A stretch of 64,000 bases of DNA. Origin: Candidatus Levyibacteriota bacterium (lineage in GTDB: Bacteria; Patescibacteriota; Microgenomatia; Levybacterales; UBA12049). The notes below the pieces were generated by a model that saw nothing but the letters and a program-made list of their open reading frames with translations, did no database searches and was not told where the DNA came from. Of the stretch, positions 7,030-60,506 are shown piece by piece (position 1 is the stretch's first letter; every line of letters begins with the position of its first letter). The position numbers were made by a program, and so were the translations under genes. The stretch is taken from NCBI GenBank assembly GCA_016432345.1, contig CP066685.1, forward strand, positions 48,236 to 112,235, written 5' to 3'.

Positions 7030-8827
<1,798 letters not shown>

Positions 8828-13574: not shown

Positions 13575-15111
13575 AATTCCCTCCATTGCCAATATTGGTT
13601 TAGAAACTGTGCCTATAGATGTGGAGGTGGATGTGGCGTCGGCCGGGTTTCCCGGATTTACTATTGTCGGGCTGGCTAGTAAAGCTGTGGAGGAGGCAAG
13701 GGAGAGAGTTAAAACAGCTATTATTAACTCGAAGTTGGATTTTCCAGGCAGAAAAATTACCGTTAATCTTGCTCCAGCAGATTTGCCTAAAGATGGAGCG
13801 GCTTATGATTTGCCAATTGCCATAGGGGTACTTTTGGCCAGCGGACAGTTACATCTGCCAAAAGAATTCAATCTTTCAAAATCATTTTTTTATGGCGAAT
13901 TATCATTAGACGGGACGCTGCGGCCAACACGTGGAATTTTACTGCTGGGCCTTTTTGCCCAAAAAATTCGCGCCTCCTCAATTTTTGTACCAGCCCAATC
14001 TGCATACGAAGCTAGTGTAGTTAAGGATATTGCCGTCGTGGGGCTAAATTCATTGTCAGAGCTAATTTTACATTTGTCGGGTGCCAAAGTAATTAATCCT
14101 TTAACGCACTCTAAAGCAAAAAAGAAGCTAGATTCCGAGCATGGAGAGTTTGATTTATCAGAAATTGCCGGGCAAGAACAAGCCAAAAGGGCACTAATTA
14201 TTGCTGCTTCCGGCGGACATAATCTGTTAATGTGGGGTCCTCCTGGAACAGGAAAGACCATGTTGTCCCGCTCCCTTCCAGGCATTTTGCCTCCGTTAAC
14301 TCTGGAAGAGAGTTTAGAAGTAACCAGAATTTACTCTGTTTCTGGTTTGATGTCTTCGGATCAACCGCTTATTTCCAAAAGGCCATTTCGATCGCCTCAT
14401 CATGGCATCTCAACAGCAGGAATGGTAGGAGGCGGCAGCAACCCTTTGCCAGGAGAGGTAAGTTTGGCCCATTTGGGGGTGTTGTTTTTGGATGAAATGC
14501 CGGAATTTCAAAGGGGTTTAATTGAAAGTTTACGACAGCCGATGGAGGATGGAACAGTGGAGATTGTGAGAGTTTTGGGGCATGTGAAGTACCCTGCCAG
14601 TTTTACTCTGATTGCGGCTATTAATCCTTGTCCTTGCGGGTATTTAGGGCATCCTAAAAAGGAATGTAAATGCTCTGAAAAACAGATTATTAAATATAAA
14701 CAGCGAATTTCAGGGCCTATTTTAGATCGGGTTGATTTATTTGTCCAGGTAGGTGTAGTAGAAACAGAAAAACTATCTGTAACATCACAAAATAAGGCAT
14801 ACCGATTGTCGTCAAAAGAGGCAAGAGAAAAAGTAATCAGTGCCCGTAAACTGCAAAAACAAAGATTCAAATATGAAAAGAGAAATATCTACACTAATTC
14901 CCAGATGAAAAATAGCGATGTGAAAAAGTACGCTAATTTAGAAAAAGAAGCAGAAAATCTGCTAAAACTTGCTTCCGATAAGTTTGATTTTTCCGCCAGA
15001 AGCTATTTTCGTTTAATAAAAGTGGCAAGGACTATTGCTGATTTAGAGGACTCAAGCAGTATAAAGCCTTTACACATGGCTGAAGCTTTGCAATATAAGC
15101 AGATGATATGA
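13564..15111 (+). CDS. comM: YifB/ComM family Mg-chelatase-like ATPase
   Basis: N-terminal Lon-like domain, Walker A GPPGTGKTM, Walker B LFLDEMPEF and a CPCG zinc motif. Overlaps dprA by 11 nt. Confidence 0.9.
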   Translation: MLVKIPSIANIGLETVPIDVEVDVASAGFPGFTIVGLASKAVEEARERVKTAIINSKLDFPGRKITVNLAPADLPKDGAAYDLPIAIGVLLASGQLHLPKEFNLSKSFFYGELSLDGTLRPTRGILLLGLFAQKIRASSIFVPAQSAYEASVVKDIAVVGLNSLSELILHLSGAKVINPLTHSKAKKKLDSEHGEFDLSEIAGQEQAKRALIIAASGGHNLLMWGPPGTGKTMLSRSLPGILPPLTLEESLEVTRIYSVSGLMSSDQPLISKRPFRSPHHGISTAGMVGGGSNPLPGEVSLAHLGVLFLDEMPEFQRGLIESLRQPMEDGTVEIVRVLGHVKYPASFTLIAAINPCPCGYLGHPKKECKCSEKQIIKYKQRISGPILDRVDLFVQVGVVETEKLSVTSQNKAYRLSSKEAREKVISARKLQKQRFKYEKRNIYTNSQMKNSDVKKYANLEKEAENLLKLASDKFDFSARSYFRLIKVARTIADLEDSSSIKPLHMAEALQYKQMI

Positions 15112-15464: not shown

Positions 15465-16095
15465 TTTTGTGGGTATACTTGATTTTTTGTTTCCCAAATA
15501 CTGCGTTAATTGTAAAAAGCTGGGATCGTATCTTTGCTCCGATTGCTTTTCTTACATTTCATTCAGCGAACAAAATACTAATAGTAGATATTTTTCTGCT
15601 ATTGCTTACAAAGGTGTGGTTAGGAAACTTATTTTCCAGTTTAAGTATAAACCATACTTGTCGGATCTTCGCAGTGTGTTGTCAGACCTTTTTTATGAAA
15701 GTTTAATTCAGCAAGAGAAATTTATGCAGATTTTAGAGACAAATCCTATTTTAGTTTCTATTCCGCTTCATAAATCAAGATTACAAAAGAGAGGATATAA
15801 TCATGCTCAAATTTTGGCAGAAGACCTAGCGAAGAGATTTGGTTTGTCTTACGTTGATTTACTCAAGCGGGTAAAGAAAACATTGTCGCAGTATGGTCTT
15901 AAAAAAGATGAGCGCAGAAAAAACGTTGCTGGCGCTTTTGTTTTTATAAATGATAAGCAACAAGTAATAAGAGATAGGTATGTTTTTTTAGTTGACGATA
16001 TTTTAACTACCGGCGCAACTATAAACGAAGCTACGCTGGTTCTCCAAAAAGCTGGGGCCAAAAACGTGTGGGGACTCGCCCTTGCGAGAGATTAG
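15451..16095 (+). CDS. comFC: ComF family phosphoribosyltransferase (ComFC)
   Basis: N-terminal CxxC...CxxC and the PRTase motif FLVDDILTTGATINE. Confidence 0.85.
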   Translation: MFTSNFVGILDFLFPKYCVNCKKLGSYLCSDCFSYISFSEQNTNSRYFSAIAYKGVVRKLIFQFKYKPYLSDLRSVLSDLFYESLIQQEKFMQILETNPILVSIPLHKSRLQKRGYNHAQILAEDLAKRFGLSYVDLLKRVKKTLSQYGLKKDERRKNVAGAFVFINDKQQVIRDRYVFLVDDILTTGATINEATLVLQKAGAKNVWGLALARD

Positions 16096-16097
16096 TG

Positions 16098-16505
16098 TGG
16101 AGATGTCCGAGAGTGACTCGGAGTCCAAGAGCGACAATAAAAAACATCTACAAGCATAGTTGATTTTTAAGAGTCATTTTATTCTTTGTCAATCAACAAA
16201 CATGAATAAAATCAAGGTTTAATAAATAAAATAAGGACAAAAACCAATCTTCCTTACCATTTCTCAACTGTGTTTCTGCCTATACCGTCCCATTGAGAAA
16301 GATGATATAAACAAACCTTAAGCTCTCGCTAACGCGAGTTCTCTTTGGTTAAGCATTCCAAGCTCGGACATAATTGCGTATGCCTCTGCAAAGAGTGCTC
16401 GTCTGCTGGTTTTAATAGCAGTTATTATTTGATCTTTTTTACGACTGTTATCAAAGTCGGCTTGCAGTTTTTTAACGTACATTCTTGTCGATGCAATGCA
16501 TCCCC
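16098..16505 (-). ncRNA. ssrA: tmRNA (ssrA)
   Basis: 5' GGGGATGCATTGCATCGACAAG pairs with 3' CATCTCC-A to give a 7-bp acceptor stem containing G3:U70. A tRNA-like 3' arm reads GGACTCCGAGTCACTCTCGGA. An internal frame ends ...NQRELALARA-TAA at 16318-16320. Starts 37 nt downstream of smpB on the same strand. Confidence 0.8.
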
Positions 16506-34271: not shown

Positions 34272-34300
34272 TTGACACTGCAGATGTAGTGTCATATTCT
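34272..34300 (+). promoter_or_regulatory. Putative nrdR-nrdJ promoter
   Basis: TTGACA, 17 nt, TATTCT. Overlaps NrdR box 1. Confidence 0.4.
34274..34293 (+). promoter_or_regulatory. NrdR box 1 (atypical, 2 bp wider)
   Basis: GACACTGCAGATGTAGTGTC has palindromic arms GACACT/AGTGTC. Its centre is 32 bp from the centre of box 2. Confidence 0.5.
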
Positions 34301-34307
34301 TGATTTT

Positions 34308-34323
34308 GCACTATATATAGCGT
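34308..34323 (+). promoter_or_regulatory. NrdR box 2
   Basis: GCACTATATATAGCGT compared with the published consensus acaCwAtATaTwGtgt. Confidence 0.7.
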
Positions 34324-34412: not shown

Positions 34413-34862
34413 ATGAGGTGTCCATATTGCGGCAGTCGAGAGACAGAGGTGGTTGAAACCAGAGACAGCGAAGATTTGGAGATAATTCGCCGAAGACGGG
34501 CGTGTGTTGCTTGCGAAAAGCGATTTACCACATACGAGCGGGTAGAAAATTTCCATCTTATTGTCATTAAAAAAGATGGAAAAAGGGAACAGTTTGGTAG
34601 AGATAAATTGCGAAACGGTATTATACGGGCATGTGAGAAAACAACAGTACCAATTGAGGAGATAGATAAAATTGTTACGGAAGTTGAGCGGGAGTTAAGG
34701 ACAGGGGAAGCAATAGAAATAGAAAGCAAAAAAATTGGACAAATGATAGCCGATAAACTGAAAAAAATAGATAAGGTGGCGTATATTAGGTTTGCCAGTG
34801 TATTTAAAAGATTTGTCGATGTTGAGGATTTTGAAAAAGAAGTCCAGAAACTGATTAAATAA
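34413..34862 (+). CDS. nrdR: Transcriptional repressor NrdR
   Basis: MRCPYCGSRETEVVETRDSED...RRRRACVACEKRFTTYERVE is a zinc ribbon followed by an ATP-cone. Confidence 0.9.
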   Translation: MRCPYCGSRETEVVETRDSEDLEIIRRRRACVACEKRFTTYERVENFHLIVIKKDGKREQFGRDKLRNGIIRACEKTTVPIEEIDKIVTEVERELRTGEAIEIESKKIGQMIADKLKKIDKVAYIRFASVFKRFVDVEDFEKEVQKLIK

Positions 34863-34863
34863 T

Positions 34864-37800
34864 ATGAAATTAGAAGGAATTAGAGAAAAAGTATTTTTAG
34901 ATAGGTATTCCTTAAAAGATAAGGAAGGTAAACCAGTAGAAAAAACTCCAGAGGAAATGTGGCGTCGTGTTGCAAAGGGAGTTGCAAAAGTTGAAAAGCC
35001 AAAACTTCGTAAAGTGTGGGAAGACAAGTTTTATAAAGCCATGGAATATTTTAAATTTGTTCCAGGGGGCAGGGTTTTGGCAGGCGCGGGCACTGGGTAT
35101 GCAGTAACATTCTATAATTGTTTCGTTATCCCTTCTCCCAAAGACTCCAGGGGTGGCATTTTAGACACTTTAAAACAAATGGTGGAGATTATGGCACACG
35201 GCGGTGGAGTGGGTATTAATTTGTCGTCTCTTAGGCCCCGAGGATTTAGAGTCAAAAAAGTCAATGGTTTTTCTTCTGGTCCTTGCAACTGGGCAGAGCT
35301 TTTTTCGGTTGCCACCAAAGATATTATCCAGCAAGGGGGGAGCCGGCGCGGGGCTTTAATGCTAATGCTGTGGGATTGGCATCCAGATATCGAGGAATTT
35401 ATTACTGTCAAGCAGGATTTAACCCGCATTAATGGTGCAAATTTGTCGGTTTGCGCCTCGGATGAATTTATGGAGGCAGTCAAAAAAGATGCAGATTGGG
35501 ATTTGATTTTCCCCGATACAACGGATCCAGAGTACGACGAAAAGTGGGATGGTATTATGGCTAATTGGAAAAAGATGGGTAAGAAAGTTAAAGTTTATAA
35601 AACAGTCAAAGCCAGACACTTGTGGGATCTTATTTGTAAAGCTGCCTGGACAAGTGCCGAGCCAGGACTGGTTTTTATGGAGCGTTACAACAAATGGTAT
35701 AACAACTGGTACTGGAATACCATTAATTGTGTTAATCCATGCGTAACTGGAGATACGTTGGTTTCCACAACCAATGGTTTGCAGTCCATGAGAAAACTCT
35801 ACGATGGTGGTATGCCATTTAGAGTGGTAGTTGATGGAAAACATTATTTGTCTACTCATGTTAAGTTAACCGGCGTAAAGCCTGTATATAAGCTTAAAAC
35901 CCGCGAAGGATACGAGCTGCGGTTGACAGAAGATCATAAAGTCTTTACTACGAATGGTAAAAAGGAAGCAGGAAAGCTGGTAGCAGGAGAAAAAATTCTT
36001 TTATCTGCAGGTGGCGCTTTTGGAACGGTTGGTACATTAGATGAAGGACGAGTGTTAGGATGGTTGGTGGGAGATGGATCAATGAAAGAAGATGTGGCAA
36101 CGCTCTTTTTCTATAGAAAAGAAAAGCAAGAGCTCGCCCCACAATTTGCTTTGATGGTTGAAAAAATGGTTGAGGGGGAACAAGTAGTTGCAAGGTCATA
36201 TCCAGTAGCTCCTCAATATGTTGAGAAAGAAGATAAGGCAGTTGTCGAGTCGGTAAGATTGTGGAGAATAGCAAATAGGTATGGTATAACACATGCAAAT
36301 AAATATGTTGTCCCGGAAAAAATCTTTGAAGGAGCCGAGGAATTTCAGCGAGGATTTTTGCAGGGTCTTTTTTCAAGCGATGGGAGCGTGCAGGGGACAG
36401 TGCAAAAGGGTGTAAGTGTTAGATTGACATCTATTAGTAGAGAACTTCTTGTTGGCGCACAAAAACTGCTTCTTAATTTTGGTATTGTCAGTAAATTGTA
36501 TGAAAATAGACGAGTCGCGCAATCTAGATTTTTGCCAGACGGTAAAGGAGGCAGCAAAGAGTATATGTGTAAAGCCTATCATGAGTTGGTTGTTGCCAAA
36601 GATAGTCTTATTGCCTATGCAGCACTGGTCGGTTTTTTACAAGAGGAAAAACAAGAGAAACTTCGAACACTATTATCTTTGTATAAAGAAGGTCCATATA
36701 AACAGCCTTTTGTGGCAACGTTCTCCTCTCTCAAGGCAGGGGGTGTTGAAGAGGTGTTTGATATAACTGTTTCAGATATCCATAGATTTTCTGCAAATGG
36801 TCTTGTTGTTTCTAATTGCGGTGAAGAGGGATTACCGGCGTGGGGCGTTTGCAACCTTGCCTCTCTTAATTTATCAGCGTTTGTTAAGGGGTATACACTT
36901 GATAAACCGGGGACGTTTGATTATGAAAGTTTGGCAGAGCATGCCCGAATTGGCGTAAGGTTTCAAGATGATGTGGTGGATGCCGACCAGTATGTGTACC
37001 CGCAGATTAAAGAGATGCAGCTTAATGGCGAACGACGCATTGGGCTTGGAACACTAGGTTTGGCAGACGCTTTAATTAAAATGCATCTTCGTTATGGGAG
37101 TGCCGAGGCCCAAAAAGTGGTTGATAAAATCTACCAGACCATCCGCGATGCAGCATATGATGAATCAATTAACATTGCCAAAGAAAAAGGAGCATTCCCC
37201 AAGATTAATGTTAAAAAGCATCTTCTGGGGTATTTTATAAAACAGTTGCCAGAGGGAGTAAAGAAGAAAATGCAAAAGTACGGGGTAAGAAATTCCATGT
37301 TGCTTCAGGCTGCGCCAACCGGCACAACAAGTTTACTTTCTGGGGCATCATCTGGTGTTGAACCTGTTTATGAATTTGAATACACCCATAATGGTCGTTT
37401 GGGCAAACAAACCGTTTTTCATTCGCTCTACGGCGAATGGAAAAAGGCTCACCCAGATGCAAAAAGACCAGACTACTTTGTTGGTGCCAACGATTTAACG
37501 CCAGAAGACCATGTCAAAATTCAGGCCACAGTCCAGAAATATGTCGACGCCTCCATCTCTAAAACTGTGAATGCTCCAAATGCCCATACAGTTGAGGATG
37601 TGAAGAAACTCTATATGATGGCATACGACGCAGGCTGCAAAGGGATTACCTATATGCGGGATGGGAGTAGATTAGGTGTTTTACAGCGGGTAGAGGAGCC
37701 AAGCGTTTCCCAGCCAGCAATTATGAAGCGCCCGATTATGGTCCAGGGCGTTACATACCAAACTAATACTCCTGTTGGTGAAGCATTTGTTACTATCAAT

Positions 37801-38277
37801 CATAACGAAAAACACGAACCATTCGAAGTCTTTATTACTATCGGTAAATCCGGGTCTGATATCGCAGCTATGGCCGAGGCCTTGGGCAGAACTATTTCCC
37901 TTTCTTTACGCTTAAACGGTGGTTTGCCGGCGCGGGAAAGAATTCGCCAGGTGATTGCGCAACTAGCAGGTATTGGAGGCGCAGGGAGTGTGGGTTTTGG
38001 GAAAGATAGGGTGCGATCTTTGCCTGATGCAGTGGCCAAAGTGCTAGCTAAACATTATGGATTTCGGGTAAATGGAAAAGTAGAAGATAAAGAAGAGGGC
38101 ACTGTAAGTAATGGGCATGTTGCCGAGGCAACAGGTATGAGTATGGTTCAGCAATTGGCTATTGATGGGTCGTCTTCGACAAGCTTGTTTGATCTATGCC
38201 CAGACTGCGGAGCAGGAACTTTTGCCTACGAAGAAGGTTGTAAAAAATGCTATTCATGCGGATACTCGGCGTGTTGA
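34864..38277 (+). CDS. nrdJ: Class II (adenosylcobalamin-dependent) ribonucleotide reductase NrdJ, intein-containing
   Basis: The extein is about 778 aa. The active-site NPCGE motif is split as ...INCVNP | intein | CGEEGLPAWGVCNLASLNL. A C-terminal Cys-rich tail reads CPDCGAG...CKKCYSCGYSAC. Confidence 0.9.
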   Translation: MKLEGIREKVFLDRYSLKDKEGKPVEKTPEEMWRRVAKGVAKVEKPKLRKVWEDKFYKAMEYFKFVPGGRVLAGAGTGYAVTFYNCFVIPSPKDSRGGILDTLKQMVEIMAHGGGVGINLSSLRPRGFRVKKVNGFSSGPCNWAELFSVATKDIIQQGGSRRGALMLMLWDWHPDIEEFITVKQDLTRINGANLSVCASDEFMEAVKKDADWDLIFPDTTDPEYDEKWDGIMANWKKMGKKVKVYKTVKARHLWDLICKAAWTSAEPGLVFMERYNKWYNNWYWNTINCVNPCVTGDTLVSTTNGLQSMRKLYDGGMPFRVVVDGKHYLSTHVKLTGVKPVYKLKTREGYELRLTEDHKVFTTNGKKEAGKLVAGEKILLSAGGAFGTVGTLDEGRVLGWLVGDGSMKEDVATLFFYRKEKQELAPQFALMVEKMVEGEQVVARSYPVAPQYVEKEDKAVVESVRLWRIANRYGITHANKYVVPEKIFEGAEEFQRGFLQGLFSSDGSVQGTVQKGVSVRLTSISRELLVGAQKLLLNFGIVSKLYENRRVAQSRFLPDGKGGSKEYMCKAYHELVVAKDSLIAYAALVGFLQEEKQEKLRTLLSLYKEGPYKQPFVATFSSLKAGGVEEVFDITVSDIHRFSANGLVVSNCGEEGLPAWGVCNLASLNLSAFVKGYTLDKPGTFDYESLAEHARIGVRFQDDVVDADQYVYPQIKEMQLNGERRIGLGTLGLADALIKMHLRYGSAEAQKVVDKIYQTIRDAAYDESINIAKEKGAFPKINVKKHLLGYFIKQLPEGVKKKMQKYGVRNSMLLQAAPTGTTSLLSGASSGVEPVYEFEYTHNGRLGKQTVFHSLYGEWKKAHPDAKRPDYFVGANDLTPEDHVKIQATVQKYVDASISKTVNAPNAHTVEDVKKLYMMAYDAGCKGITYMRDGSRLGVLQRVEEPSVSQPAIMKRPIMVQGVTYQTNTPVGEAFVTINHNEKHEPFEVFITIGKSGSDIAAMAEALGRTISLSLRLNGGLPARERIRQVIAQLAGIGGAGSVGFGKDRVRSLPDAVAKVLAKHYGFRVNGKVEDKEEGTVSNGHVAEATGMSMVQQLAIDGSSSTSLFDLCPDCGAGTFAYEEGCKKCYSCGYSAC
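35740..36816 (+). mobile_element. Intein (359 aa) with LAGLIDADG homing-endonuclease domain
   Basis: Starts CVTGDTLV, has block B LRLTEDHKVF, and ends GLVVSN followed by +1 Cys. LAGLIDADG motifs are LGWLVGDGSM and FLQGLFSSDGSV. Confidence 0.85.
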
Positions 38278-38278
38278 A

Positions 38279-38680
38279 ATGGAAGAACAAAACAATAGAA
38301 GATTTGCCAATATTTTTATTGGTATTTTGATCCTTTTAATCATTGGATATTTTGGTTATGGATATATTGCTTCTCAAGATGCTGCAAAAAAAAGCGCAGA
38401 ATTAACAACACAGAATAAACCAACTCCAACTATCGTCCTTGTTGATTATGTGAAGTATCAAGGAAAAACAGGAAAGAATGCTATGCAGCTTTTGCAAGAA
38501 AAATCTTCAGTTGAGACTGCAACATCAGGACTTATTATTGCTATTAATGGAAGAAGAGCAGATAATGCAAAACGTGAGTATTGGGCATTTTATGTGAACG
38601 GCAAACTGGCAACTGTTGGCTCGTCTGATTATCAAACAAAGGATGAAGATATGATTGAGTGGAAAATAGATAAGTATTAA
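38279..38680 (+). CDS. DUF4430-like protein with membrane anchor (possible cobalamin binder)
   Basis: TM anchor, then YWAFYVNGKLATVGSSDYQTKDEDMIEWK, which resembles the DUF4430 domain related to the transcobalamin beta-domain. Start trimmed to the ATG at 38279. Confidence 0.5.
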   Translation: MEEQNNRRFANIFIGILILLIIGYFGYGYIASQDAAKKSAELTTQNKPTPTIVLVDYVKYQGKTGKNAMQLLQEKSSVETATSGLIIAINGRRADNAKREYWAFYVNGKLATVGSSDYQTKDEDMIEWKIDKY

Positions 38681-38685
38681 GTATT

Positions 38686-39219
38686 ATGTATCAAGTATTA
38701 AGGGAGATAACGAATCCATTATTAATTATTGGTATTGCTGTTGCTTTGCGGCTTGTGCCGCATCCTGCAAATTTTGCGCCGATTGGGGCTATGGCGTTGT
38801 TTGGAGGAGCATATCTTAACAAGAAATATGCATTAGCAGTACCACTACTAGCAATGTTGGTATCGGATTTTTTTATTGGTTTTCATAATACCATGGGTTT
38901 TGTGTATGCAAGCTTTTTACTTATTGGCATTCTTGGTTTGTGGTTAAGAAGGCACAAAAATGTTAGAAATGTGATAGGTGCTGCGTTTGTTTCCTCAATA
39001 CTTTTTTTCCTTATTACCAACTTTGGAGTATGGTTGGTTAGTAATATCTATCCAAAAACTGCTGCAGGACTAATAGAATGTTATGTTGTAGCAATCCCGT
39101 TTTTTAGAAATACATTACTTGGAGATTTGTTTTATGTAGGTTTATTTTTTTTTGGTTACGAAGCAGTGTTGAGGTTTATAAAAAGCTATGGTCAAAATCT
39201 ACACAAAAACAGGGGATAA
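38686..39219 (+). CDS. Small multi-pass membrane protein (candidate vitamin/B12 transporter component)
   Basis: About 5-6 TM segments. The HPANFAPIGAMALFGGAYL motif resembles S-component-like membrane proteins. The function is inferred from context only. Confidence 0.4.
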   Translation: MYQVLREITNPLLIIGIAVALRLVPHPANFAPIGAMALFGGAYLNKKYALAVPLLAMLVSDFFIGFHNTMGFVYASFLLIGILGLWLRRHKNVRNVIGAAFVSSILFFLITNFGVWLVSNIYPKTAAGLIECYVVAIPFFRNTLLGDLFYVGLFFFGYEAVLRFIKSYGQNLHKNRG

Positions 39220-39727
39220 AGGGGAGACATCGCTATATGGCGGAAAAAGAGTATCAAAAGCAGATCTAAGAGTTGAAGCCTATGGGACAGTGGATGAACT
39301 CAACAGCGCAATAGGTATTACGATTGCGCAATTTTCAAATAAATCTCAAATAATAAATCTCAAAAAAGAACTTACACAAATTCAAAATGATTTGTTTGAA
39401 ATTGGCTCAATCTTAGCGAGTCCATCAACTATACGCTATACGCTAGACGCTAGACGCTTGGAGAAGATGATTGATGAGATGACAAAAGAACTTCCAGAGC
39501 TTCGAAACTTTATTTTGCCAGGAGGAGGTATTGTAGGTTCGTATTTGCATCTTACTCGTTCGATTGCAAGGCGGGCAGAACGAAGAATTGTTGTATTGTC
39601 TCAAAAAGAGCAGGTTGACAAAAGTATTTTAATGTATTTTAATCGTCTTTCTGATTTGCTGTTTACCATGGCTAGGTTTGTAAATTATAAAGAAAATAAA
39701 AAAGAAGTTATTTGGACAAATAAATAG
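39188..39727 (+). CDS. pduO: PduO-type ATP:cob(I)alamin adenosyltransferase
   Basis: KIYTKTGDKGETSLYGGKRVSK, DELNSAIG, NFILPGG and ARRAERR. Confidence 0.9.
   Translation: MVKIYTKTGDKGETSLYGGKRVSKADLRVEAYGTVDELNSAIGITIAQFSNKSQIINLKKELTQIQNDLFEIGSILASPSTIRYTLDARRLEKMIDEMTKELPELRNFILPGGGIVGSYLHLTRSIARRAERRIVVLSQKEQVDKSILMYFNRLSDLLFTMARFVNYKENKKEVIWTNK
39429..39458 (+). repeat. Heptad array (CTATACG CTATACG CTAGACG CTAGACG) in frame inside pduO
   Basis: This is the right-arm type of the palindromic family. 22 nt (39424-39445) are identical to 52944-52965. Encodes STIRYTLDARR. Confidence 0.9.
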
Positions 39728-39818
39728 ACGGGTGAAACCTTGTGAAATTCAAGGGTAGTGCCGCTACTGTGACAACCAGAGCCCCGATATGAGTCTTCCG
39801 AGCAGAAGCGTTTTTTTT
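39728..39818 (+). ncRNA. Candidate cobalamin riboswitch (short variant)
   Basis: GGUGAAACCUUGUGAAAUUCAAGGGUAGUGCCGCUACUGUGA aligns without gaps to the core consensus AGGGAAnnnnGGUGnAAnUCCnnnnCnGnnCCCGCnACUGUnA. The CCUUG-UGAAAUU-CAAGG hairpin resembles P4/L4, and CGGG...CCCG forms a closing helix. A U8 run precedes the ATG at 39819. Confidence 0.45.
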
Positions 39819-40916
39819 ATGGAAAGAGAAGTAAGATTAGGCTCGCAAGCTTTTGATGTTGAAAAAGAAAGAGTATACGGAAATAAACAAATTCGTGATG
39901 ATTTAGTGTCGTATTTAGACGAATATCGTTTGCAAGTATCAAAACATGGTTTTGAATTTCAATATTCTGGTTATAAGGTTAAGGATATATATAGTGGCGA
40001 GCCAATGAGCGTTAAGACAAAACGAACTTTAGCAGAGCGACGAGCAAAAGGATTGCCAATACACAGAGAATTAGCAGAAGATGCAGGTATTGAAAGTCTT
40101 GATGAGCAGTTGGCATATGCCAAAGAAGGAGACCGTATTTTTTGGATGAGCCCGCCAGGACCAAAAGAAGATGGATATGGTAATTATGGCTTTGTTTTTG
40201 AAGGTAGAGTTGTGGGTGAGCGTCTTTTTATGACTGCAAATCGAATAGAAAAACCAACTATTGCCCAGTGCAACAAAGCATTTTTTGAATTAACAAGAGA
40301 TAATGTTGGCTATATAAATCCAGAGGGATTTTTAGCCAACCCCAGAGTTGTTAGAAATAGTATGGTTGATGCAGATTTTATCTTGCAAAGAAATTTTTCG
40401 TTTGCAGTAGATCAGAAAGAAGCATTAATAAATAAACAAGTTATTGCAGAAATGGATTCGATGATTGATGAATTTGTTGGGGTAGTAAAAACAGGCACGC
40501 GAGAAGAAAAGATTACTGCTTTTCATGCGCTGGAAAATTACGCGCTCGAACTCAAAAAACGTCTTATGCATAAGGCCGAAGCAAGGGAAAACGATAACAT
40601 TATTTTTATGAGCGAATATCGTGATCATAGATATTTAGCAGATATACTGAATGTCTATGGATATATGCCCCCCATTGTTGCGGGAAGCTGTGGACCAACC
40701 GGAGAGGAAACAAAAAGTAACGATCTGTTTGCCGATAATTTTAAAGATTTAATGAAGGCAATTTTTGGAGACTTGAAGGAGATGTTTGGTATTGATGAAG
40801 AATCTTATTCTTTTGATAAGAGCGGTACGTGTGTGCGGTGCAAAAACGAAGGCATGCTTGGTCCGTGTAATTTGTGTCAAGGGTGTGATAGCTACTTACG
40901 ATTGCAAGCCGCGTAA
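39819..40916 (+). CDS. Hypothetical protein with C-terminal Cys cluster
   Basis: 366 aa from the ATG at 39819 (the track start 39789 lies inside the leader structure). Ends CVRCKNEGMLGPCNLCQGCDSYL. No family recognised. Confidence 0.5.
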   Translation: MEREVRLGSQAFDVEKERVYGNKQIRDDLVSYLDEYRLQVSKHGFEFQYSGYKVKDIYSGEPMSVKTKRTLAERRAKGLPIHRELAEDAGIESLDEQLAYAKEGDRIFWMSPPGPKEDGYGNYGFVFEGRVVGERLFMTANRIEKPTIAQCNKAFFELTRDNVGYINPEGFLANPRVVRNSMVDADFILQRNFSFAVDQKEALINKQVIAEMDSMIDEFVGVVKTGTREEKITAFHALENYALELKKRLMHKAEARENDNIIFMSEYRDHRYLADILNVYGYMPPIVAGSCGPTGEETKSNDLFADNFKDLMKAIFGDLKEMFGIDEESYSFDKSGTCVRCKNEGMLGPCNLCQGCDSYLRLQAA

Positions 40917-40962: not shown

Positions 40963-41427
40963 ATGGATGATACTGTCCAGAATTCAGTTCAAAGTTCAAA
41001 GTTCAAAGTTCAAAGCCAGACGCAGGGAGACGATAGTGCGACGACCCAAGTTCAGTCTCAGGTTGTTCCGCAGCCTGTTGGATCAGTTGCAAAAGAACAT
41101 GGGCCGATTGAGGAATACATTAAATCATCGGGAGCAGAATTAGAGCTTATTATACCAGAGGAACTTAAAAATCATGTTGAGGTGGTTTCGGATCGGGAAA
41201 AACCACAGCTTACTCATCATCATAAAGCAGTTGGAATTCATCCCGCCAAAGAATCGGTGTCTGTAGCTGTACAGCCGCAGCAGGTAATTCAGCTCCCAAT
41301 GACAGAAGAAGAGGCTTTGCAAGCAATAAAAACAACAAGCATAAGCGATTCCAAACATTGGATGGCTGTTTTAATTGAAAAGGTTTATGAACATATAAGA
41401 AATATGCATAGAAGAATAACAAATTAG
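40963..41427 (+). CDS. Hypothetical protein
   Basis: 154-aa ORF ending 1 nt before the next gene. The N-terminus contains a heptamer repeat, so the start codon is uncertain. Confidence 0.4.
   Translation: MDDTVQNSVQSSKFKVQSQTQGDDSATTQVQSQVVPQPVGSVAKEHGPIEEYIKSSGAELELIIPEELKNHVEVVSDREKPQLTHHHKAVGIHPAKESVSVAVQPQQVIQLPMTEEEALQAIKTTSISDSKHWMAVLIEKVYEHIRNMHRRITN
40986..41015 (+). repeat. Tandem heptanucleotide repeat (GTTCAAA)x4
   Basis: Period-7 tract of 30 bp. Preceded by CAGAATTCAG, which matches the unit of the gap repeat. Confidence 0.9.
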
Positions 41428-41428
41428 T

Positions 41429-43810
41429 ATGCCATTACAAGGATTTACGCCAGAAAATATTAGTTCGGTTTTGACCTTAATTTTTTTTGCTCTCATTGCA
41501 GCTTTGGGATTTCTTTTAGGGGCATGGGGATTTTTGTATATCTTTTTGCTTTGGATTAGAAATAAAGACCGAGAACAAGAAGCACTGGATTCGGTGTTAT
41601 TGCAAATTGCCGTGCCGCGGGATAACGAAATTAAAATTGACGCGGCAGAACAAATGTTTTCCTCGCTTGCCTCGATTAAAAAAAGTGGAAGATTAATGTT
41701 TTTTAAAAGACAGCCGCATATTTCTTTTGAAATTGTCGGGTTGCCGGGAGATATTCGTTTTTACGTGCATGTGTCGCAAAATTTACGGGATTTGGTAGAA
41801 AAACAAATTAACGGCGCGTATCCAGATGCCGAAATAGTGGTGGTTGATGAGATGGCGGCAAAGCAAAAGCACGCAAATGTTTTAGGAAATGAATATAATA
41901 TTTTTTCAGAAGGCGGCAAGGTTGCCTTTGCTTCTTTAAAACTAAAAGCTGTAGATTACAAGCCAATAAAAGTGTATAAAGATTTAGCTGTTGATCCGCT
42001 TTCTTCAATTACCTCAGTTTTGGCCAAAATGACAGATGGTGAAGGTGCGGCAGTTCAAATTATGGTAAGACCATCAAGTAGTGATTGGAAAAAGCAAGGC
42101 CGTTCGTATGTGTCTAAAATTAAAAAAACAGAGGCTAATCCAGAAACTGCCAAGTATTCGGCAGACAGTAAAGAGCTTGAGGCAATTGAAAATAAAGTCA
42201 GTAAACCAGGTTTTGATGTAGTGGTGCGAATTGTTGTGTCATCAAGCAGTAAAGAAGTGGCGCAAGCGCATTTATCCAATATTAAAAGCGCGTTTTCCCA
42301 GTTTGACGGGATTAATTCTTTTACCAGTAACAAACATAGATTTAAAAGCCTATTTTTAACAGATTTTATTTATCGCTACATGCCAATGCGCGGGCAGACA
42401 TCTGTTTTGTCCAGCGAAGAGTTAGCCACAATTTTTCACTTTCCCAACAAAAGCATTACCACGCCTAATATTTATTGGATGACAGCCAAAAGAGCTCCAG
42501 CCCCGGCTACCATTCCAGATAGCGGTTTATATTTGGGCAGAAGTACTTACAGGGGTCTTTCCAAGTCTGTTTTTATGTCGGAGGATGATAGAAGAAGGCA
42601 CATGTATATTATTGGCAAAACCGGTACTGGCAAGTCGGAATTTTTAAAAGATATGATTATGCAGGATATTAGAGATGGCAAGGGTTTGGCAGTGATTGAC
42701 CCACATGGTGATTTAATTGAAGATATGTTGCCCATGATTCCGCCTAGTCGGGCAGAGGATGTTATTTTGTTTGATCCATCAGATGCTAGTCGGCCAATGG
42801 GTTTTAATATGCTTGAAGCCCAAACCGAAGAGCAGAAGCATTATGTTGTGTCATCAATCATTGGACTTATGTACAAACTTTTTGATCCTAATAAAACAGG
42901 TATTATTGGTCCTCGTTTTGAACACGCCATTAGAAACGCCATGTTAACAGTTATGTACGAGAAGGGAAGTACTTTTATTGAAGTGGTGCGAGTACTTACT
43001 GATGCAGCGTATGTGCAGGAACTGTTGCCTAAAGTGCAAGACCCAATTGTGCGGCGCTACTGGACAGATCAAATTGCCCAAACATCAGATTTCCATAAAT
43101 CAGAAGTTTTGGATTATATTGTGTCAAAGTTTGGCCGTTTTGTTACCAACAAAATGATTAGAAACATTATTGGGCAATCGGATAGTGCGTTTAATTTTAG
43201 AAAAGTTATGGACGAGGGGAAAATTTTACTGGTTAACTTAGCCAAAGGGAGAATAGGCGAGGAAAACTCCAGCTTCTTAGGTCTTATTTTGGTGCCAAAA
43301 ATTTTAGTGGCAGCCATGAGCAGACAAGATATGCCAAAAGATCAAAGACGCGACTTCTTTTTATATGTTGACGAGTTTCAAAATTTTGCCACGCCAGATT
43401 TTGCCCAGATTTTATCAGAAGCTAGAAAATACAAACTAAATCTGGTGGTGGCAAATCAATTTATTGGACAAATGGAAGAGGAGGTCAAAAACGCCATTTT
43501 TGGTAATGTTGGATCAGTTGTTTCTTTCCGCGTTGGAGTAACCGATGCAAATTACTTACAGCATGAATTCCAGCCCACTTTTACCGAAGCGGATCTTATT
43601 AATGTGGAGCGTTTTAATACTTACATTAAAAAAATTGTGGGCGGAGAACCTGTTTCGCCTTTTTCCATGGATTTGACTCGTGATTTAACTAAGGAAAAAG
43701 CCGCTGCTAATCCCCGGGTGGCCGAGTTGATTCGCGAACTCTCGCGTCTTAAGTATGGTCGCGACGCGGCAGTTGTTGAAGCCGAGATTGCGCAACGAGC
43801 TAGGCTTTAG
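41429..43810 (+). CDS. Membrane-anchored VirD4/TraG-like (TrwB/DUF87-type) ATPase
   Basis: N-terminal TM hairpin, Walker A IIGKTGTGKSEF, Walker B-like FLYVDEFQNFAT and a C-terminal TraD/TraG-like region. Confidence 0.6.
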   Translation: MPLQGFTPENISSVLTLIFFALIAALGFLLGAWGFLYIFLLWIRNKDREQEALDSVLLQIAVPRDNEIKIDAAEQMFSSLASIKKSGRLMFFKRQPHISFEIVGLPGDIRFYVHVSQNLRDLVEKQINGAYPDAEIVVVDEMAAKQKHANVLGNEYNIFSEGGKVAFASLKLKAVDYKPIKVYKDLAVDPLSSITSVLAKMTDGEGAAVQIMVRPSSSDWKKQGRSYVSKIKKTEANPETAKYSADSKELEAIENKVSKPGFDVVVRIVVSSSSKEVAQAHLSNIKSAFSQFDGINSFTSNKHRFKSLFLTDFIYRYMPMRGQTSVLSSEELATIFHFPNKSITTPNIYWMTAKRAPAPATIPDSGLYLGRSTYRGLSKSVFMSEDDRRRHMYIIGKTGTGKSEFLKDMIMQDIRDGKGLAVIDPHGDLIEDMLPMIPPSRAEDVILFDPSDASRPMGFNMLEAQTEEQKHYVVSSIIGLMYKLFDPNKTGIIGPRFEHAIRNAMLTVMYEKGSTFIEVVRVLTDAAYVQELLPKVQDPIVRRYWTDQIAQTSDFHKSEVLDYIVSKFGRFVTNKMIRNIIGQSDSAFNFRKVMDEGKILLVNLAKGRIGEENSSFLGLILVPKILVAAMSRQDMPKDQRRDFFLYVDEFQNFATPDFAQILSEARKYKLNLVVANQFIGQMEEEVKNAIFGNVGSVVSFRVGVTDANYLQHEFQPTFTEADLINVERFNTYIKKIVGGEPVSPFSMDLTRDLTKEKAAANPRVAELIRELSRLKYGRDAAVVEAEIAQRARL

Positions 43811-46337: not shown

Positions 46338-47204
46338 TTACAGCTCGATTAGCTGAGTGTTTTCTTTGCCTTTGTCTTTGACAAATTCTAAGTATCTTTC
46401 AGTTGTTGAGATGCGTTTGTGGCCGAGGATTTTGGAAAGCATCACCAAAGACACACCGTGTTTGATGTGGTGGGCAACAAAGGTATGGCGAAGGTCATTG
46501 ACCTTGGCATTTTTAATCTCTGCCAATCTAAAGTAGCGCTCGATAGCAGTTCTAATATTACGAATTAAGAAAGGTTTTCCAGATTTGGTCACAAAGATAC
46601 GTTCCTCTTTGGTTTGGGGTCTGATAGTTAGATATCGCTTTAATGCTTCTTTAGCTGGCCGATTAAGCGGTACCAGGCGTTCTTCGTGTTTTTCGTACGG
46701 GCGGATTTTAAGGGTGTCGTTTTGAATATCTTCGAGTCTAAGATTGGCAAGTTCGCCGATACGAATTCCTGTTTGGAGAAGGATTTCAATAACAGCAAAC
46801 ATACGTGCATCATCTCGCGCGGCATCCCTAAGAGCTCGATACTCCATGGGTGTTAGAATTCGGGGTGGCGCAAGCTCGTAGCGGGGATGAGAGACTAAAA
46901 GAGATGGGTCATCTGTTATGTATTCGTTTACTTTAAGAAAGCGGTAGAATGTTCGAGTAGAGTTGAGTTTTCGGGAAATAGTTTTTGGCGTATAGCCAGT
47001 GCCGGTAAGTTTTGCCAAGAATGCTTCAAGATCGTTTTTGGTTACCTCGTGAACGTGATTTTTTTTCATTTCCTCCAAAAAAGAGATCAGCTGATCAATA
47101 TCTTTTCCGTATGCTACAATGGTAGCATTGGAGTGTTTTTTACCTTTGAGGAAATTAGTAAATTCCTGGTGGGCATCTCGTAATTTAACTTGCTTGCTGT
47201 TCAT
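46338..47204 (-). CDS. Tyrosine recombinase XerC/XerD-like
   Basis: N-terminal SAM-like domain. Catalytic region GIRIGELANL, LRHTFVAHHI and GHKRISTTERYLE. Confidence 0.85.
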   Translation of the reverse strand: MNSKQVKLRDAHQEFTNFLKGKKHSNATIVAYGKDIDQLISFLEEMKKNHVHEVTKNDLEAFLAKLTGTGYTPKTISRKLNSTRTFYRFLKVNEYITDDPSLLVSHPRYELAPPRILTPMEYRALRDAARDDARMFAVIEILLQTGIRIGELANLRLEDIQNDTLKIRPYEKHEERLVPLNRPAKEALKRYLTIRPQTKEERIFVTKSGKPFLIRNIRTAIERYFRLAEIKNAKVNDLRHTFVAHHIKHGVSLVMLSKILGHKRISTTERYLEFVKDKGKENTQLIEL

Positions 47205-49520: not shown

Positions 49521-49800
49521 TACGCGCGGGGTAGTGTAGAGTGCACGTGAGGCTCAAAATGGGCCCTTTTATTAGTAATAATGAGAGAGAACTTAGCTAT
49601 ATCGGTAAAATCCCCCTTCGCATAAAGTTTTGGAGGGACAATACCGAGGGAATCCGCAAACTGGCGGAACACCGTAGAGACTACACGCTAAGCTCCCGAT
49701 ACTATCGGGATGATGATATAGTCCGACACTCCAAGCAATTGGAGAAACAGATCGCATAATCTCACAGGCTGGGCGCAACTCCCAGCCCCGCAACACATTT
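49521..49800 (+). ncRNA. Unclassified structured RNA (stand-alone sRNA or long 5' leader of the MFS gene)
   Basis: Hairpins: CGGTA...TACCG (49603-49646) enclosing TCCCCC/GGAGGGA; TCCGC-AAACTG-GCGGA (49653-49668); CCCGAT-ACT-ATCGGG (49695-49709); CTCCAA-GCAA-TTGGAG with a GNRA loop (49729-49744); GGCTGGG-CGCAACT-CCCAGCC (49767-49787) followed by a T5 run. A possible closing helix is GCGGGG/CCCCGC. The ORFs on both strands look like noise. Confidence 0.4.
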
Positions 49801-59711: not shown

Positions 59712-60506
59712 TTAAGCTTTCTGTACATAGTTTATCATGTTTTCAAAGATGGTGAGACCAGCTGGTTTTGTTATCTGCTCGCTTGCGGACATTCGGCGCC
59801 AGTTGGGGTGGTTGGTAATGTGGTTAAATTTTTCCGGATGGGGCATTAGACCTAAAATTCTGCCAGTTGGGTCACAAATGCCGGCAATGGCATTAATAGA
59901 TCCATTTGGATTTTCTGGATAATTTTGGGTTGGTTTACTGTTCGCATCGACATAGCGAAAGACAACCAAATTTTCATCCTCGATTTTTTGTATCATATCG
60001 GGTGTTGCTAAGAATTTACCTTCTCCATGATTGACAGAAACATCTGTTATTAATTCCGCATTTTTCAGAAAGACACAAGCACTTTTTTCCTGTTTTATCT
60101 TTACCCACCTGCATTGAAATAGACCAGATTCATTATTGGTTAAGGTCGCATTTATAGTGCCTATGTTTCCAAATGGTAAAAGACCTGTGAGGATAAGTAC
60201 CTGGAAGCCGTTACATATACCTATAACAAGTGTATCTTTACGTTCAACAAATTTTTTAAGTTCATCAGAAAAAAATGATATCAGCTCAACTGCTAAAATT
60301 TTCCCAGATACAATATCATCTCCGTATGCAAAACCGCCAGGGAGGGCGAGAATATTGAAGTCACGAAACTTTTTTTCTTTGTTTCGTAACTGATTAACAT
60401 GGACAATTTCGGCATTGCCGCCGCTTACATTAAATGCAAAGGCTAATTCTTCATCGCAGTTTGTCCCATCTGCTTTTAGCACTAAAACCTTTGGTTTTAT
60501 TTTCAT
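59712..60506 (-). CDS. purQ: FGAM synthase glutaminase subunit PurQ
   Basis: ALPGGFAYGDD, GICNGFQ and the HGEG triad context. Confidence 0.85.
   Translation of the reverse strand: MKIKPKVLVLKADGTNCDEELAFAFNVSGGNAEIVHVNQLRNKEKKFRDFNILALPGGFAYGDDIVSGKILAVELISFFSDELKKFVERKDTLVIGICNGFQVLILTGLLPFGNIGTINATLTNNESGLFQCRWVKIKQEKSACVFLKNAELITDVSVNHGEGKFLATPDMIQKIEDENLVVFRYVDANSKPTQNYPENPNGSINAIAGICDPTGRILGLMPHPEKFNHITNHPNWRRMSASEQITKPAGLTIFENMINYVQKA

What the first reader, a model, noticed from the sequence alone, without database searches (positions are those of the whole stretch)
34413..39727. nrdR-nrdJ linked to a putative three-gene cobalamin salvage set
The B12-dependent class II RNR is followed co-directionally by three genes. 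The first is an anchored DUF4430-like protein, a domain related to the transcobalamin/intrinsic-factor beta-domain. The second is a small polytopic membrane protein. The third is a PduO-type adenosyltransferase that overlaps the second by 32 nt. Together they would capture, import and adenosylate a corrinoid for the only obvious B12 enzyme here. No B12 biosynthesis genes are visible in this window. The transporter pair is not a canonical BtuFCD or ECF-CbrT system, so it may be an undescribed uptake route.
Basis: partly seen in the sequence, partly recalled or inferred. Interest (0 to 1): 0.55.

Follow-up and report, generated by a model that had tools for sequence, protein, structure and literature searches.

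The report
Vitamin B12 salvage operon beside nrdJ
A tiny-genome (CPR, Levybacteria) bacterium keeps the genes to capture, import and activate vitamin B12 directly behind its B12-dependent ribonucleotide reductase; the layout is already known from lactobacilli, but the membrane carrier here belongs to an unstudied protein family.

Summary
nrdR and nrdJ are followed, with 1-nt and 5-nt gaps and a 32-nt overlap, by a membrane-anchored DUF4430 protein, a six-helix DUF6580 membrane protein and a PduO adenosyltransferase.

The B12-salvage reading is well supported. The claim that this is not an ECF-CbrT-type system is not. The set matches the Lactobacillales nrdJ-cbrS-cbrT-pduO cluster gene for gene:
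- CbrS is a DUF4430 protein.
- DUF6580 is a remote homologue of CbrT (hhalign 93.8%) and has the ECF S-component fold.

What appears to be new:
- **DUF6580 (PF20221)** has no literature in the library searched. Across phyla it belongs to the B12 regulon: 19 of 21 Ignavibacteria/Bacteroidota-type loci carry a cobalamin riboswitch, often with a TonB-dependent receptor. At least 40 of 77 loci have DUF4430 as the upstream neighbour.
an AdoCbl-II riboswitch at 39716-39792. It controls a 375-aa gene from a family with no Pfam or fold match. That family always follows PduO in the loci examined and is fused to it once.

Energy coupling (ECF module or solitary carrier) is unresolved. Verdict: a new variant of a known kind, of moderate interest.

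The parts
34308..34323 (+). NrdR-box-like palindrome GCACTATATATAGCGT, 90 nt upstream of nrdR and just downstream of a promoter-like site (TTGACA-17-TATTCT, 34272-34300)
   Evidence: It is the only match in the window to ACACWATATATWGTGT with up to 3 mismatches. The count alone is not significant (about 1 expected by chance); the position is what is expected. The consensus is recalled from Rodionov & Gelfand 2005. Promoter scan.
34413..34862 (+). nrdR, the ATP-cone/zinc-ribbon repressor of ribonucleotide reductase genes
   Evidence: TIGR00244, 183 bits (cut-off 124.65); PF22811 and PF03477.
34864..38277 (+). nrdJ, adenosylcobalamin-dependent class II ribonucleotide reductase with a C-terminal TSCPD/Cys-rich domain. 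It is interrupted by an intein at 35740-36816.
   Evidence: TIGR02504, 543 bits; PF02867 E 1.4e-115; PF12637; LAGLIDADG_3 and Intein_splicing. The intein covers aa 293-651 and splits the NPC|GE motif.
38279..38680 (+). cbrS-like capture protein: an N-terminal membrane anchor followed by an extracytoplasmic DUF4430 (transcobalamin beta-domain-like, SLBB) domain
   Evidence: PF14478 E 1.8e-15. The family profile hits the haptocorrin beta-domain 4KKI (E 6.9e-5), 3U7Z and intrinsic factor. BLASTP against L. helveticus CbrS gives E 9e-12. The ATG lies 1 nt after the nrdJ stop.
38686..39219 (+). cbrT-like membrane carrier of family DUF6580 (PF20221): six helices with an ECF S-component fold
   Evidence: PF20221 E 6.6e-56; PF12822 only E 0.0018, below its cut-off. 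Profile against the PDB: the sole hit is CbrT 6FNP_A, E 0.0026. hhalign against the CbrT family: 93.8%, E 1.8e-7. AF2 pLDDT 91.8; seven of the eight best Foldseek hits are S-components.
39188..39727 (+). pduO-type ATP:cob(I)alamin adenosyltransferase, overlapping the preceding gene by 32 nt
   Evidence: TIGR00636, 204 bits (cut-off 108.45); PF01923 E 6.3e-59. 44% identical to the PduO of the L. helveticus cluster.
39716..39792 (+). AdoCbl-II (RF01689) cobalamin riboswitch aptamer. It overlaps the pduO stop codon and the first ATG (39789) of the next gene.
   Evidence: 39.8 bits (gathering score 36.5), E 6.6e-7 in the 8-kb search. Aptamers lie at the same place in L005, L006, L015, L020, L032 and L063. 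Nine of 15 predicted pairs show compensatory changes across 8 copies.
39789..40916 (+). Riboswitch-controlled 375-aa cytoplasmic protein of unknown family (alternative start ATG 39819, used in the NCBI annotation). It has conserved SPPGPKEEGYGDYGF, LENYALELK and GSCG motifs and a C-terminal CxxC...CxxC zinc ribbon.
   Evidence: No Pfam or NCBIfam hit. 69 relatives at 90% clustering; 588 representatives at 50%. It follows PduO in every locus examined and is fused to PduO in P0141. AF2 pLDDT 82.6 with no fold match in PDB or BFVD.

Best explanation
The stretch is an NrdR-controlled operon, nrdR-nrdJ-cbrS(like)-cbrT(like)-pduO. It supplies the cell's class II ribonucleotide reductase with its cofactor.

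Proposed steps:
1. The membrane-anchored DUF4430 protein, a relative of the transcobalamin beta-domain, binds an environmental corrinoid outside the cell. (Inferred from homology.)
2. It hands the corrinoid to the six-helix DUF6580 protein. DUF6580 is a remote homologue of the B12-specific ECF S-component CbrT and carries the corrinoid across the membrane. (Inferred from homology, fold and regulon membership.)
3. PduO adenosylates the corrinoid, which also traps it in the cell. AdoCbl then loads NrdJ. (Enzyme families shown; the flux is inferred.)

The cluster is the CPR counterpart of the Lactobacillales nrdJ-cbrS-cbrT-pduO cluster.

In this genome the three salvage genes are translationally coupled to nrdJ. 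They therefore follow dNTP demand through NrdR. The B12 riboswitch governs only the next gene, a PduO-associated protein of unknown function.

Energy coupling is not resolved. I lean slightly towards ECF-independent, BtuM-like facilitated uptake driven by metabolic trapping.
For: Gene identities and junctions.

Synteny with the known system:
- L. helveticus and L. zeae loci read RNR-DUF4430-CbrT-PduO with matching gene sizes.
- The nrdJ-cbrS-cbrT-pduO cluster is named, and CbrT shown to transport cobalamin and cobinamide, in PMC5997447.

Homology:
- DUF6580 profile against the PDB hits only CbrT.
- hhalign gives 93.8% over 166 columns.
- Some CbrT relatives carry both PF20221 and PF12822 hits.
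- The DUF6580 model has the S-component fold.
- The DUF4430 profile hits haptocorrin, intrinsic factor and transcobalamin beta-domains, and the window protein matches L. helveticus CbrS at E 9e-12.

Regulon evidence for DUF6580:
- An RF00174 riboswitch lies co-directionally in 19 of 21 Ignavibacteria/Bacteroidota/Phycisphaerae-type loci.
- In six of these it sits directly in front of DUF6580 as a single gene.
- Immediate upstream neighbours in 77 loci: DUF4430 in 40, TonB-dependent receptor in 12, BtuF-type binding protein in 2.
- Immediate downstream neighbour: PduO in 20 of 78.
- In some CPR relatives the slot holds a DUF4430 protein plus a DUF4430/alpha-alpha-toroid fusion, that is, both transcobalamin halves.
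- 15 of 18 CPR loci scanned carry a cobalamin riboswitch, either between nrdJ and the uptake genes or after pduO.

An NrdR box lies upstream of nrdR.

No ABC ATPase or ECF gene was found in the 64-kb window or among recurrent neighbours.
Against: - No ligand binding or transport has been shown for any DUF6580 or CbrS/DUF4430 protein.
- In the window itself no riboswitch precedes the uptake genes.
- The DUF6580-CbrT relationship is remote: 19% identity, and PF12822 scores below its gathering cut-off.
- CbrT and BtuM were not among the top Foldseek hits; other S-components were.
- A related transcobalamin-like/ECF operon in L. sakei has been proposed to import heme (preprint 10.1101/864751), so tetrapyrrole specificity cannot be read from homology alone.
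- Only 64 kb of a 762-kb contig was visible, so an ECF module elsewhere cannot be excluded.
Confidence: 0.82

Rival explanations
1. Same pathway, but DUF6580 is a conventional group II ECF S-component. It docks onto a shared EcfAA'T module encoded elsewhere in the genome and uptake is ATP-driven, exactly as for Lactobacillus ECF-CbrT.
For: The closest solved relative is CbrT, which works with an ECF module. The model has the S-component fold. Group II modules are typically encoded away from their S-components (established knowledge of ECF transporters). Burroughs 2007 found SLBB genes commonly in operons with CbiO/CbiQ-like genes.
Against: No ABC ATPase signature appears in any window ORF. No ABC_tran or CbiQ family appears among the recurrent immediate neighbours in 77-78 loci. 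Many relatives sit in riboswitch-TonB receptor-DUF6580 operons of Ignavibacteria and Bacteroidota. From general knowledge, those phyla rarely carry ECF modules, and the arrangement resembles that of the solitary BtuM.
Confidence: 0.35
2. The DUF4430/DUF6580 pair imports another tetrapyrrole or a corrinoid precursor (heme or cobinamide) rather than complete cobalamin.
For: The L. sakei Lsa1836-1840 operon, with transcobalamin-like alpha and beta proteins and an ECF system, was proposed to take up heme. ECF-CbrT also transports cobinamide.
Against: The pair is linked to nrdJ, PduO and cobalamin riboswitches across phyla. No cobinamide-remodelling genes (CobU/S/T, CbiZ, CbiB) and no heme-related genes were found in the window. 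Cobinamide alone would not serve NrdJ.
Confidence: 0.08
3. The three genes sit next to nrdJ only because the genome is compact. The membrane proteins have no functional link to B12.
For: CPR genomes are gene-dense with short intergenic regions. In the window no riboswitch precedes the pair.
Against: The same order is conserved at 50-70% protein identity across many CPR lineages and in Lactobacillales. Riboswitch control of DUF6580 is seen in unrelated phyla. The reading frames are translationally coupled or overlapping.
Confidence: 0.02

Closest known systems
Lactobacillales nrdJ-cbrS-cbrT-pduO cluster / ECF-CbrT vitamin B12 transporter (Rodionov et al. 2009; Santos et al. 2018, PDB 6FNP)
   Same: The four genes are in the same order with nearly identical sizes. 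CbrS is a DUF4430 protein, like the window's first gene (E 9e-12). The carrier is homologous to CbrT. PduO is 44% identical. Both organisms are presumed B12 auxotrophs that use a class II RNR.
   Different: The carrier falls in PF20221 (DUF6580), not PF12822. The RNR is the NrdJ type with a TSCPD domain and is preceded by nrdR, whereas the Lactobacillus enzyme matches the RNR_Alpha/RNR-II_ins_dom families. No ECF module has been seen so far. CPR relatives add cobalamin riboswitches and a fifth, unknown gene; none was detected in the two Lactobacillus loci scanned.
BtuM, the solitary S-component-type B12 transporter of Proteobacteria (Rempel et al. 2018, PDB 6FFV)
   Same: A small six-helix S-component-fold protein. 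It is genomically linked to BtuB and to a cobalamin adenosyltransferase, and metabolic trapping was proposed for it. DUF6580 relatives in diderm phyla have the same BtuB and riboswitch context.
   Different: No sequence match to BtuM was detectable, even with a profile at E up to 10. DUF6580 has no invariant cysteine that could correspond to BtuM's cobalt-ligating Cys. The CPR version is paired with an external DUF4430 binder.
Transcobalamin / intrinsic factor / haptocorrin beta-domain and bacterial SLBB 'transcobalamin-like' proteins (Burroughs et al. 2007; PDB 4KKI, 2PMV, 3U7Z)
   Same: The DUF4430 domain is homologous. It is predicted to be extracytoplasmic and to scavenge B12. Some CPR relatives also encode the alpha-alpha toroid half.
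   Different: In the window only the beta-domain is present, tethered by a single N-terminal helix. There is no alpha-domain partner in this locus.
L. sakei Lsa1836-1840 ECF-like system with transcobalamin-like alpha and beta proteins, proposed for heme uptake (preprint 10.1101/864751)
   Same: An extracellular transcobalamin-like binder is encoded together with an S-component.
   Different: That operon encodes its own ECF ATPase and T components and is linked to heme physiology. The window cluster is linked to NrdJ, PduO and a B12 riboswitch.

Membership tests
nrdJ-cbrS-cbrT-pduO B12 salvage cluster | Co-directional order: class II RNR, CbrS, S-component, PduO adenosyltransferase | tested here: met
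   The window order matches the L. helveticus and L. zeae loci and the published description.
nrdJ-cbrS-cbrT-pduO B12 salvage cluster | CbrS is a small anchored or secreted DUF4430 protein | tested here: met
   PF14478 is present in both. Pairwise E 9e-12.
nrdJ-cbrS-cbrT-pduO B12 salvage cluster | Cobalamin/cobinamide transport activity | not testable with these tools
   This needs complementation or uptake assays like those in PMC5997447.
ECF S-component CbrT family (Pfam PF12822 ECF_trnsprt) | Scores above the Pfam gathering cut-off for PF12822 | tested here: not met
   18.8 bits against a cut-off of 30.7. L. delbrueckii CbrT scores 49.5 bits.
ECF S-component CbrT family (Pfam PF12822 ECF_trnsprt) | Detectable homology to CbrT and the six-helix S-component fold | tested here: met
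   hhalign 93.8%, E 1.8e-7. Sole PDB profile hit is 6FNP_A. Foldseek top hits are FolT, RibU, PanT and ThiT, TM 0.55-0.61.
ECF S-component CbrT family (Pfam PF12822 ECF_trnsprt) | An EcfA/EcfA'/EcfT module is present in the genome | not testable with these tools
   None was found in the 64-kb window or among recurrent neighbours. The rest of the 762-kb contig could not be read.
DUF6580 (PF20221) | Scores above the Pfam gathering cut-off over the full length | tested here: met
   189.4 bits against a cut-off of 27, profile positions 7-156 of 162.
BtuM | Sequence similarity to BtuM (PDB 6FFV) and a conserved cobalt-ligating cysteine | tested here: not met
   No BtuM chain was recovered from the PDB at E up to 10 with the sequence or the profile. 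No invariant Cys occurs in 30 DUF6580 sequences.
BtuFCD type II ABC importer | A periplasmic binding protein (PF01497) with FecCD permease and ABC ATPase genes | tested here: not met
   None lies in the cluster or the window. Only 2 of 77 relatives have a Peripla_BP_2 neighbour.
Transcobalamin-like SLBB / DUF4430 (PF14478) | Domain match and homology to solved cobalamin-binding beta-domains | tested here: met
   PF14478, 57.6 bits against a cut-off of 23.8. 4KKI E 6.9e-5, 3U7Z E 1.2e-4, 2PMV/3KQ4 E 3e-3.
PduO-type ATP:cob(I)alamin adenosyltransferase | TIGR00636 equivalog-domain score above its cut-off | tested here: met
   204.1 bits against 108.45.
AdoCbl-II riboswitch (RF01689) | Covariance-model score above the gathering score, with the structure supported by covariation | tested here: met
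   39.8 bits against 36.5. Nine of 15 pairs show double changes across 8 syntenic copies. Ligand selectivity was not tested.

The most novel reading that the evidence does not exclude
DUF6580 (PF20221) may be a widespread, so far undescribed family of ECF-independent vitamin B12 carriers. It would be the second solitary S-component-type B12 importer after BtuM. In diderm bacteria it would work behind BtuB under riboswitch control. In CPR bacteria it would work with a membrane-tethered transcobalamin beta-domain.

In addition, the riboswitch-controlled, PduO-adjacent (once PduO-fused) 375-aa family may be a new cobalamin-processing or cobalamin-delivery factor, for example a reductase, dealkylase or escort for NrdJ.
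Probability: 0.35. Interest if true: 0.65.

Novelty: new variant of a known kind. Interest (0 to 1): 0.42.

Why it matters
CPR bacteria have minimal genomes and depend on other cells. This cluster shows that one of them ties DNA-precursor synthesis to scavenged B12 through a compact operon.

The analysis also gives a testable function to a domain-of-unknown-function family that has thousands of members (more than 7,000 clusters at 90% identity) in Ignavibacteria, Bacteroidota, CPR and other groups. According to Rempel et al. 2018, the inner-membrane B12 transporter is unknown in roughly half of B12-auxotrophic bacteria, so this fills part of that gap.

It flags two experimentally untouched components of the B12 regulon. 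One is CbrS/DUF4430, a bacterial transcobalamin-like binder. The other is a protein family with no Pfam or fold match that is tightly linked to PduO.

Tried and rejected
- Sequence searches of the PDB with the single DUF6580 and DUF4430 proteins gave only chance hits or none. Profiles were needed.
- Literature searches for DUF6580 and PF20221 returned nothing. A search for Patescibacteria plus ECF transporter plus vitamin also returned nothing. Rodionov 2009 could not be fetched under the PMC id I tried.
- A lenient Pfam scan of 40 members of the 375-aa family found only generic zinc-ribbon hints.
- Membership in BtuM was considered and rejected: no similarity and no conserved Cys.
- BtuFCD was considered and rejected: no such genes.
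- I looked for an intrinsic terminator after the riboswitch. Only a 4-bp stem precedes the T8 run, and the scan reports nothing there. The regulatory mechanism stays open; the first AUG lies in the 3' strand of P1.
- I could not determine whether the genome has an ECF module.
- The window's ChlI-type 'Mg_chelatase' ORF (13564-15111) and the 'CobB/CobQ-like GATase_5' ORF (59712-60506) were checked. They are not B12 biosynthesis genes. The first is a ComM/YifB-type ATPase next to dprA. The second is PurQ next to PurL/PurM-type genes.

Full report
**1. What is there**

The window comes from a Candidatus Levyibacteriota (CPR/Microgenomates) contig of 762 kb. The DUF6580 protein is 100% identical to an NCBI MAG protein from that phylum.

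On the + strand lie the following genes:
- nrdR, 34413-34862.
- nrdJ, 34864-38277.
- A DUF4430 protein, 38279-38680. Its ATG is one base after the nrdJ stop. It has an N-terminal hydrophobic anchor.
- A DUF6580 membrane protein, 38686-39219.
- A PduO-type adenosyltransferase, 39188-39727, with the stated 32-nt overlap.

nrdJ additionally carries a 359-aa LAGLIDADG intein (nt 35740-36816) that splits the NPC|GE active-site motif.

An NrdR-box-like palindrome, GCACTATATATAGCGT, sits 90 nt upstream of nrdR. It is the only such match in the window. It lies next to a promoter-like site.

I scanned the 30 largest remaining ORFs against Pfam and all 63 ORFs for ABC-signature motifs. No B12 biosynthesis gene, no other B12 enzyme and no ABC or ECF ATPase turned up.

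**2. Is it more than chance?**

Yes. The same string recurs in other Levybacteria contigs: GAPDH, kinase, DUF5667, nrdR, nrdJ, DUF4430, DUF6580, PduO, an unknown gene, a small ORF and a TraD-like ATPase.

I scanned one genome per GTDB species with a DUF6580 alignment. This found 573 relatives, and 80 loci were fetched.
- DUF4430 is the adjacent upstream gene in 40 of the 80 by phmmer and in 40 of 77 by Pfam.
- PduO is the adjacent downstream gene in 20 of 78.
- nrdJ lies in the locus in 30 of 80.
- In some CPR relatives that phmmer missed, the slot holds a DUF4430 protein plus a DUF4430/alpha-alpha-toroid fusion. These correspond to both halves of a transcobalamin.

**3. What the membrane protein is**

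DUF6580 (PF20221) has no literature in the library searched. Three lines of evidence tie it to B12.

(a) *Regulon membership.* I scanned 21 loci from Ignavibacteria, Bacteroidota/Chitinophagaceae, Phycisphaerae and similar organisms.
- 19 carry a co-directional cobalamin riboswitch (RF00174, 52-111 bits).
- In 18 the riboswitch lies upstream of DUF6580 or of its operon, typically riboswitch, TonB-dependent receptor, DUF6580.
- In six it lies directly in front of DUF6580 as a lone gene.

(b) *Homology.*
- A profile of 30 DUF6580 proteins hits exactly one PDB chain: CbrT of the L. delbrueckii ECF-CbrT B12 transporter (6FNP_A, E 0.0026).
- Profile-profile comparison with a CbrT family alignment gives 93.8% probability and E 1.8e-7 over 166 columns.
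- Several CbrT relatives carry precomputed hits to both PF20221 and PF12822.

(c) *Fold.* The AlphaFold model (pLDDT 91.8) has six long helices. Its best PDB matches are ECF S-components (FolT, RibU, PanT, ThiT; TM 0.55-0.61).

DUF6580 is not BtuM. There is no sequence match and no invariant cysteine. By Pfam's own threshold it is also not a PF12822 member, whereas CbrT is.

**4. What the first gene is**

PF14478/DUF4430 is the transcobalamin-like SLBB domain. A profile of 31 CPR copies hits the haptocorrin beta-domain (E 6.9e-5), the R. gnavus protein 3U7Z, intrinsic factor and transcobalamin.

Burroughs et al. 2007 already predicted that such bacterial proteins are surface-exposed B12 scavengers.

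**5. The decisive comparison**

Santos et al. [quoted passage not shown]

I fetched that cluster from L. helveticus and Lacticaseibacillus zeae. It reads class II RNR, DUF4430 (129-136 aa), S-component (174-179 aa), PduO (183-186 aa). The window has 133, 177 and 179 aa in the same order.
- The window's DUF4430 protein aligns with L. helveticus CbrS at E 9e-12.
- The two PduO proteins are 44% identical.

The three-gene set is therefore the CPR counterpart of cbrS-cbrT-pduO. It is not an unrelated route.

**6. How it most likely works**

- *Capture.* The tethered beta-domain binds a corrinoid outside the cell.
- *Translocation.* The S-component-like DUF6580 carries it across the membrane.
- *Trapping and activation.* PduO adenosylates it.
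- *Use.* NrdJ consumes the AdoCbl.

The enzyme identities are shown. The binding and transport steps are inferred.

In this genome the salvage genes are translationally coupled to nrdJ behind an NrdR box, so they should follow dNTP demand. In relatives a riboswitch is inserted between nrdJ and the uptake genes (L001, L005, L008, L017, L031, L062, L090).

Energy coupling is open.
- CbrT needs an ECF module.
- The diderm relatives look like BtuM: solitary, next to BtuB and an adenosyltransferase, with metabolic trapping proposed.
- No ECF genes are seen near any DUF6580.
- The whole genome could not be inspected.

A heme or cobinamide substrate is a minor rival.

**7.

An AdoCbl-II riboswitch (RF01689, 39.8 bits, E 6.6e-7) lies at 39716-39792. 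It overlaps the pduO stop and the first ATG of a 375-aa ORF.
- Aptamers occur at the same post-pduO position in L005, L006, L015, L020, L032 and L063. L007, L010 and L026 have RF00174 there.
- Eight copies show compensatory changes in 9 of 15 pairs.

The ORF it controls belongs to a family with no Pfam, NCBIfam or structural match.
- It has 69 clusters at 90% identity and 588 representatives at 50%.
- It follows PduO in every locus examined. This holds even where the transporter pair is absent (L090, L091).
- It is fused to PduO in one protein (P0141).
- It is under riboswitch control either directly or through the operon.

It is probably a PduO partner in cobalamin processing or delivery. That is an inference only.

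**8. Verdict**

The functional interpretation is supported. The claim of an undescribed route is mostly not supported, because the architecture is the known nrdJ-cbrS-cbrT-pduO cluster.

What is new:
- The carrier belongs to an uncharacterised sister family whose B12-regulon membership is documented here across phyla.
- CPR versions add riboswitches and a fifth, unknown gene.

I rate it a new variant of a known kind, with interest about 0.4.

Noticed in passing
window 39716-39792 and 39789-40916: An AdoCbl-II riboswitch lies directly after pduO. It controls a 375-aa protein from a family with no Pfam or fold match, with SPPGPKEEGYGDYGF, LENYALELK and GSCG motifs and a C-terminal zinc ribbon. 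The family follows PduO in every locus examined and is fused to it in P0141 (locus L092).
   Followed up: yes
window 35740-36816 (inside nrdJ): A 359-aa LAGLIDADG intein is inserted in the NPC|GE active-site motif of NrdJ. The Levybacteria relatives in L001-L005 (789-815 aa) lack it; the L013 NrdJ (about 1197 aa) is long enough to carry a similar insert.
   Followed up: partly
window 34272-34323: A promoter-like site is followed by an NrdR-box-like palindrome (GCACTATATATAGCGT). A second imperfect palindrome, TGACACTGCAGATGTAGTGTCA, lies about 30 bp upstream. This suggests NrdR autoregulation of the whole nrdR-nrdJ-salvage operon.
   Followed up: partly
L030, L039, L041, L045, L053, L056 (Chitinophagaceae/Bacteroidota loci): Two cobalamin riboswitches occur in tandem units. 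One precedes DUF6580 as a single gene and a second precedes the next gene, a TonB-dependent receptor where it was identified. The carrier and the outer-membrane receptor are therefore regulated separately.
   Followed up: partly
L021 5577-7935, L031 5999-7979, L063 3588-5928: In these CPR relatives the slot between nrdJ and DUF6580 holds a DUF4430 protein plus an alpha-alpha-toroid (prenyltransferase-like) protein, which also carries a DUF4430 domain in L021 and L063. Together these correspond to both domains of a transcobalamin.
   Followed up: partly
window 40963-43810; also L001-L033: A small ORF and a TraD/VirD4-like ATPase (DUF8128, TrwB_AAD_bind; 793 aa) are conserved immediately downstream of the B12 cluster throughout Levybacteria. 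A tRNA follows, and often an integrase. Any relation to the B12 genes is unknown.
   Followed up: no
window 49545-49745: A group I intron matches RF00028 (66.5 bits). ARAGORN finds no flanking tRNA gene, and the host gene was not identified.
   Followed up: partly
window 16095-16505 (-), 7088-8827 (-), 46338-47204 (-): A tmRNA gene, a large serine recombinase (Resolvase plus Recombinase domains) next to a tRNA cluster, and a tyrosine integrase/XerC-like gene.
   Followed up: no
proteins P0259, P0263, P0272, P0277 (CbrT relatives): These Lactobacillales-type CbrT relatives carry precomputed hits to both PF20221 (DUF6580) and PF12822. They appear to bridge the two Pfam families.
   Followed up: no
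L016 (labelled Candidatus Nanoarchaeia archaeon): A contig assigned to an archaeal MAG carries nrdR-nrdJ-DUF4430-DUF6580 with 58% identity to the window's carrier. This could be mis-binning or lateral transfer.
   Followed up: no
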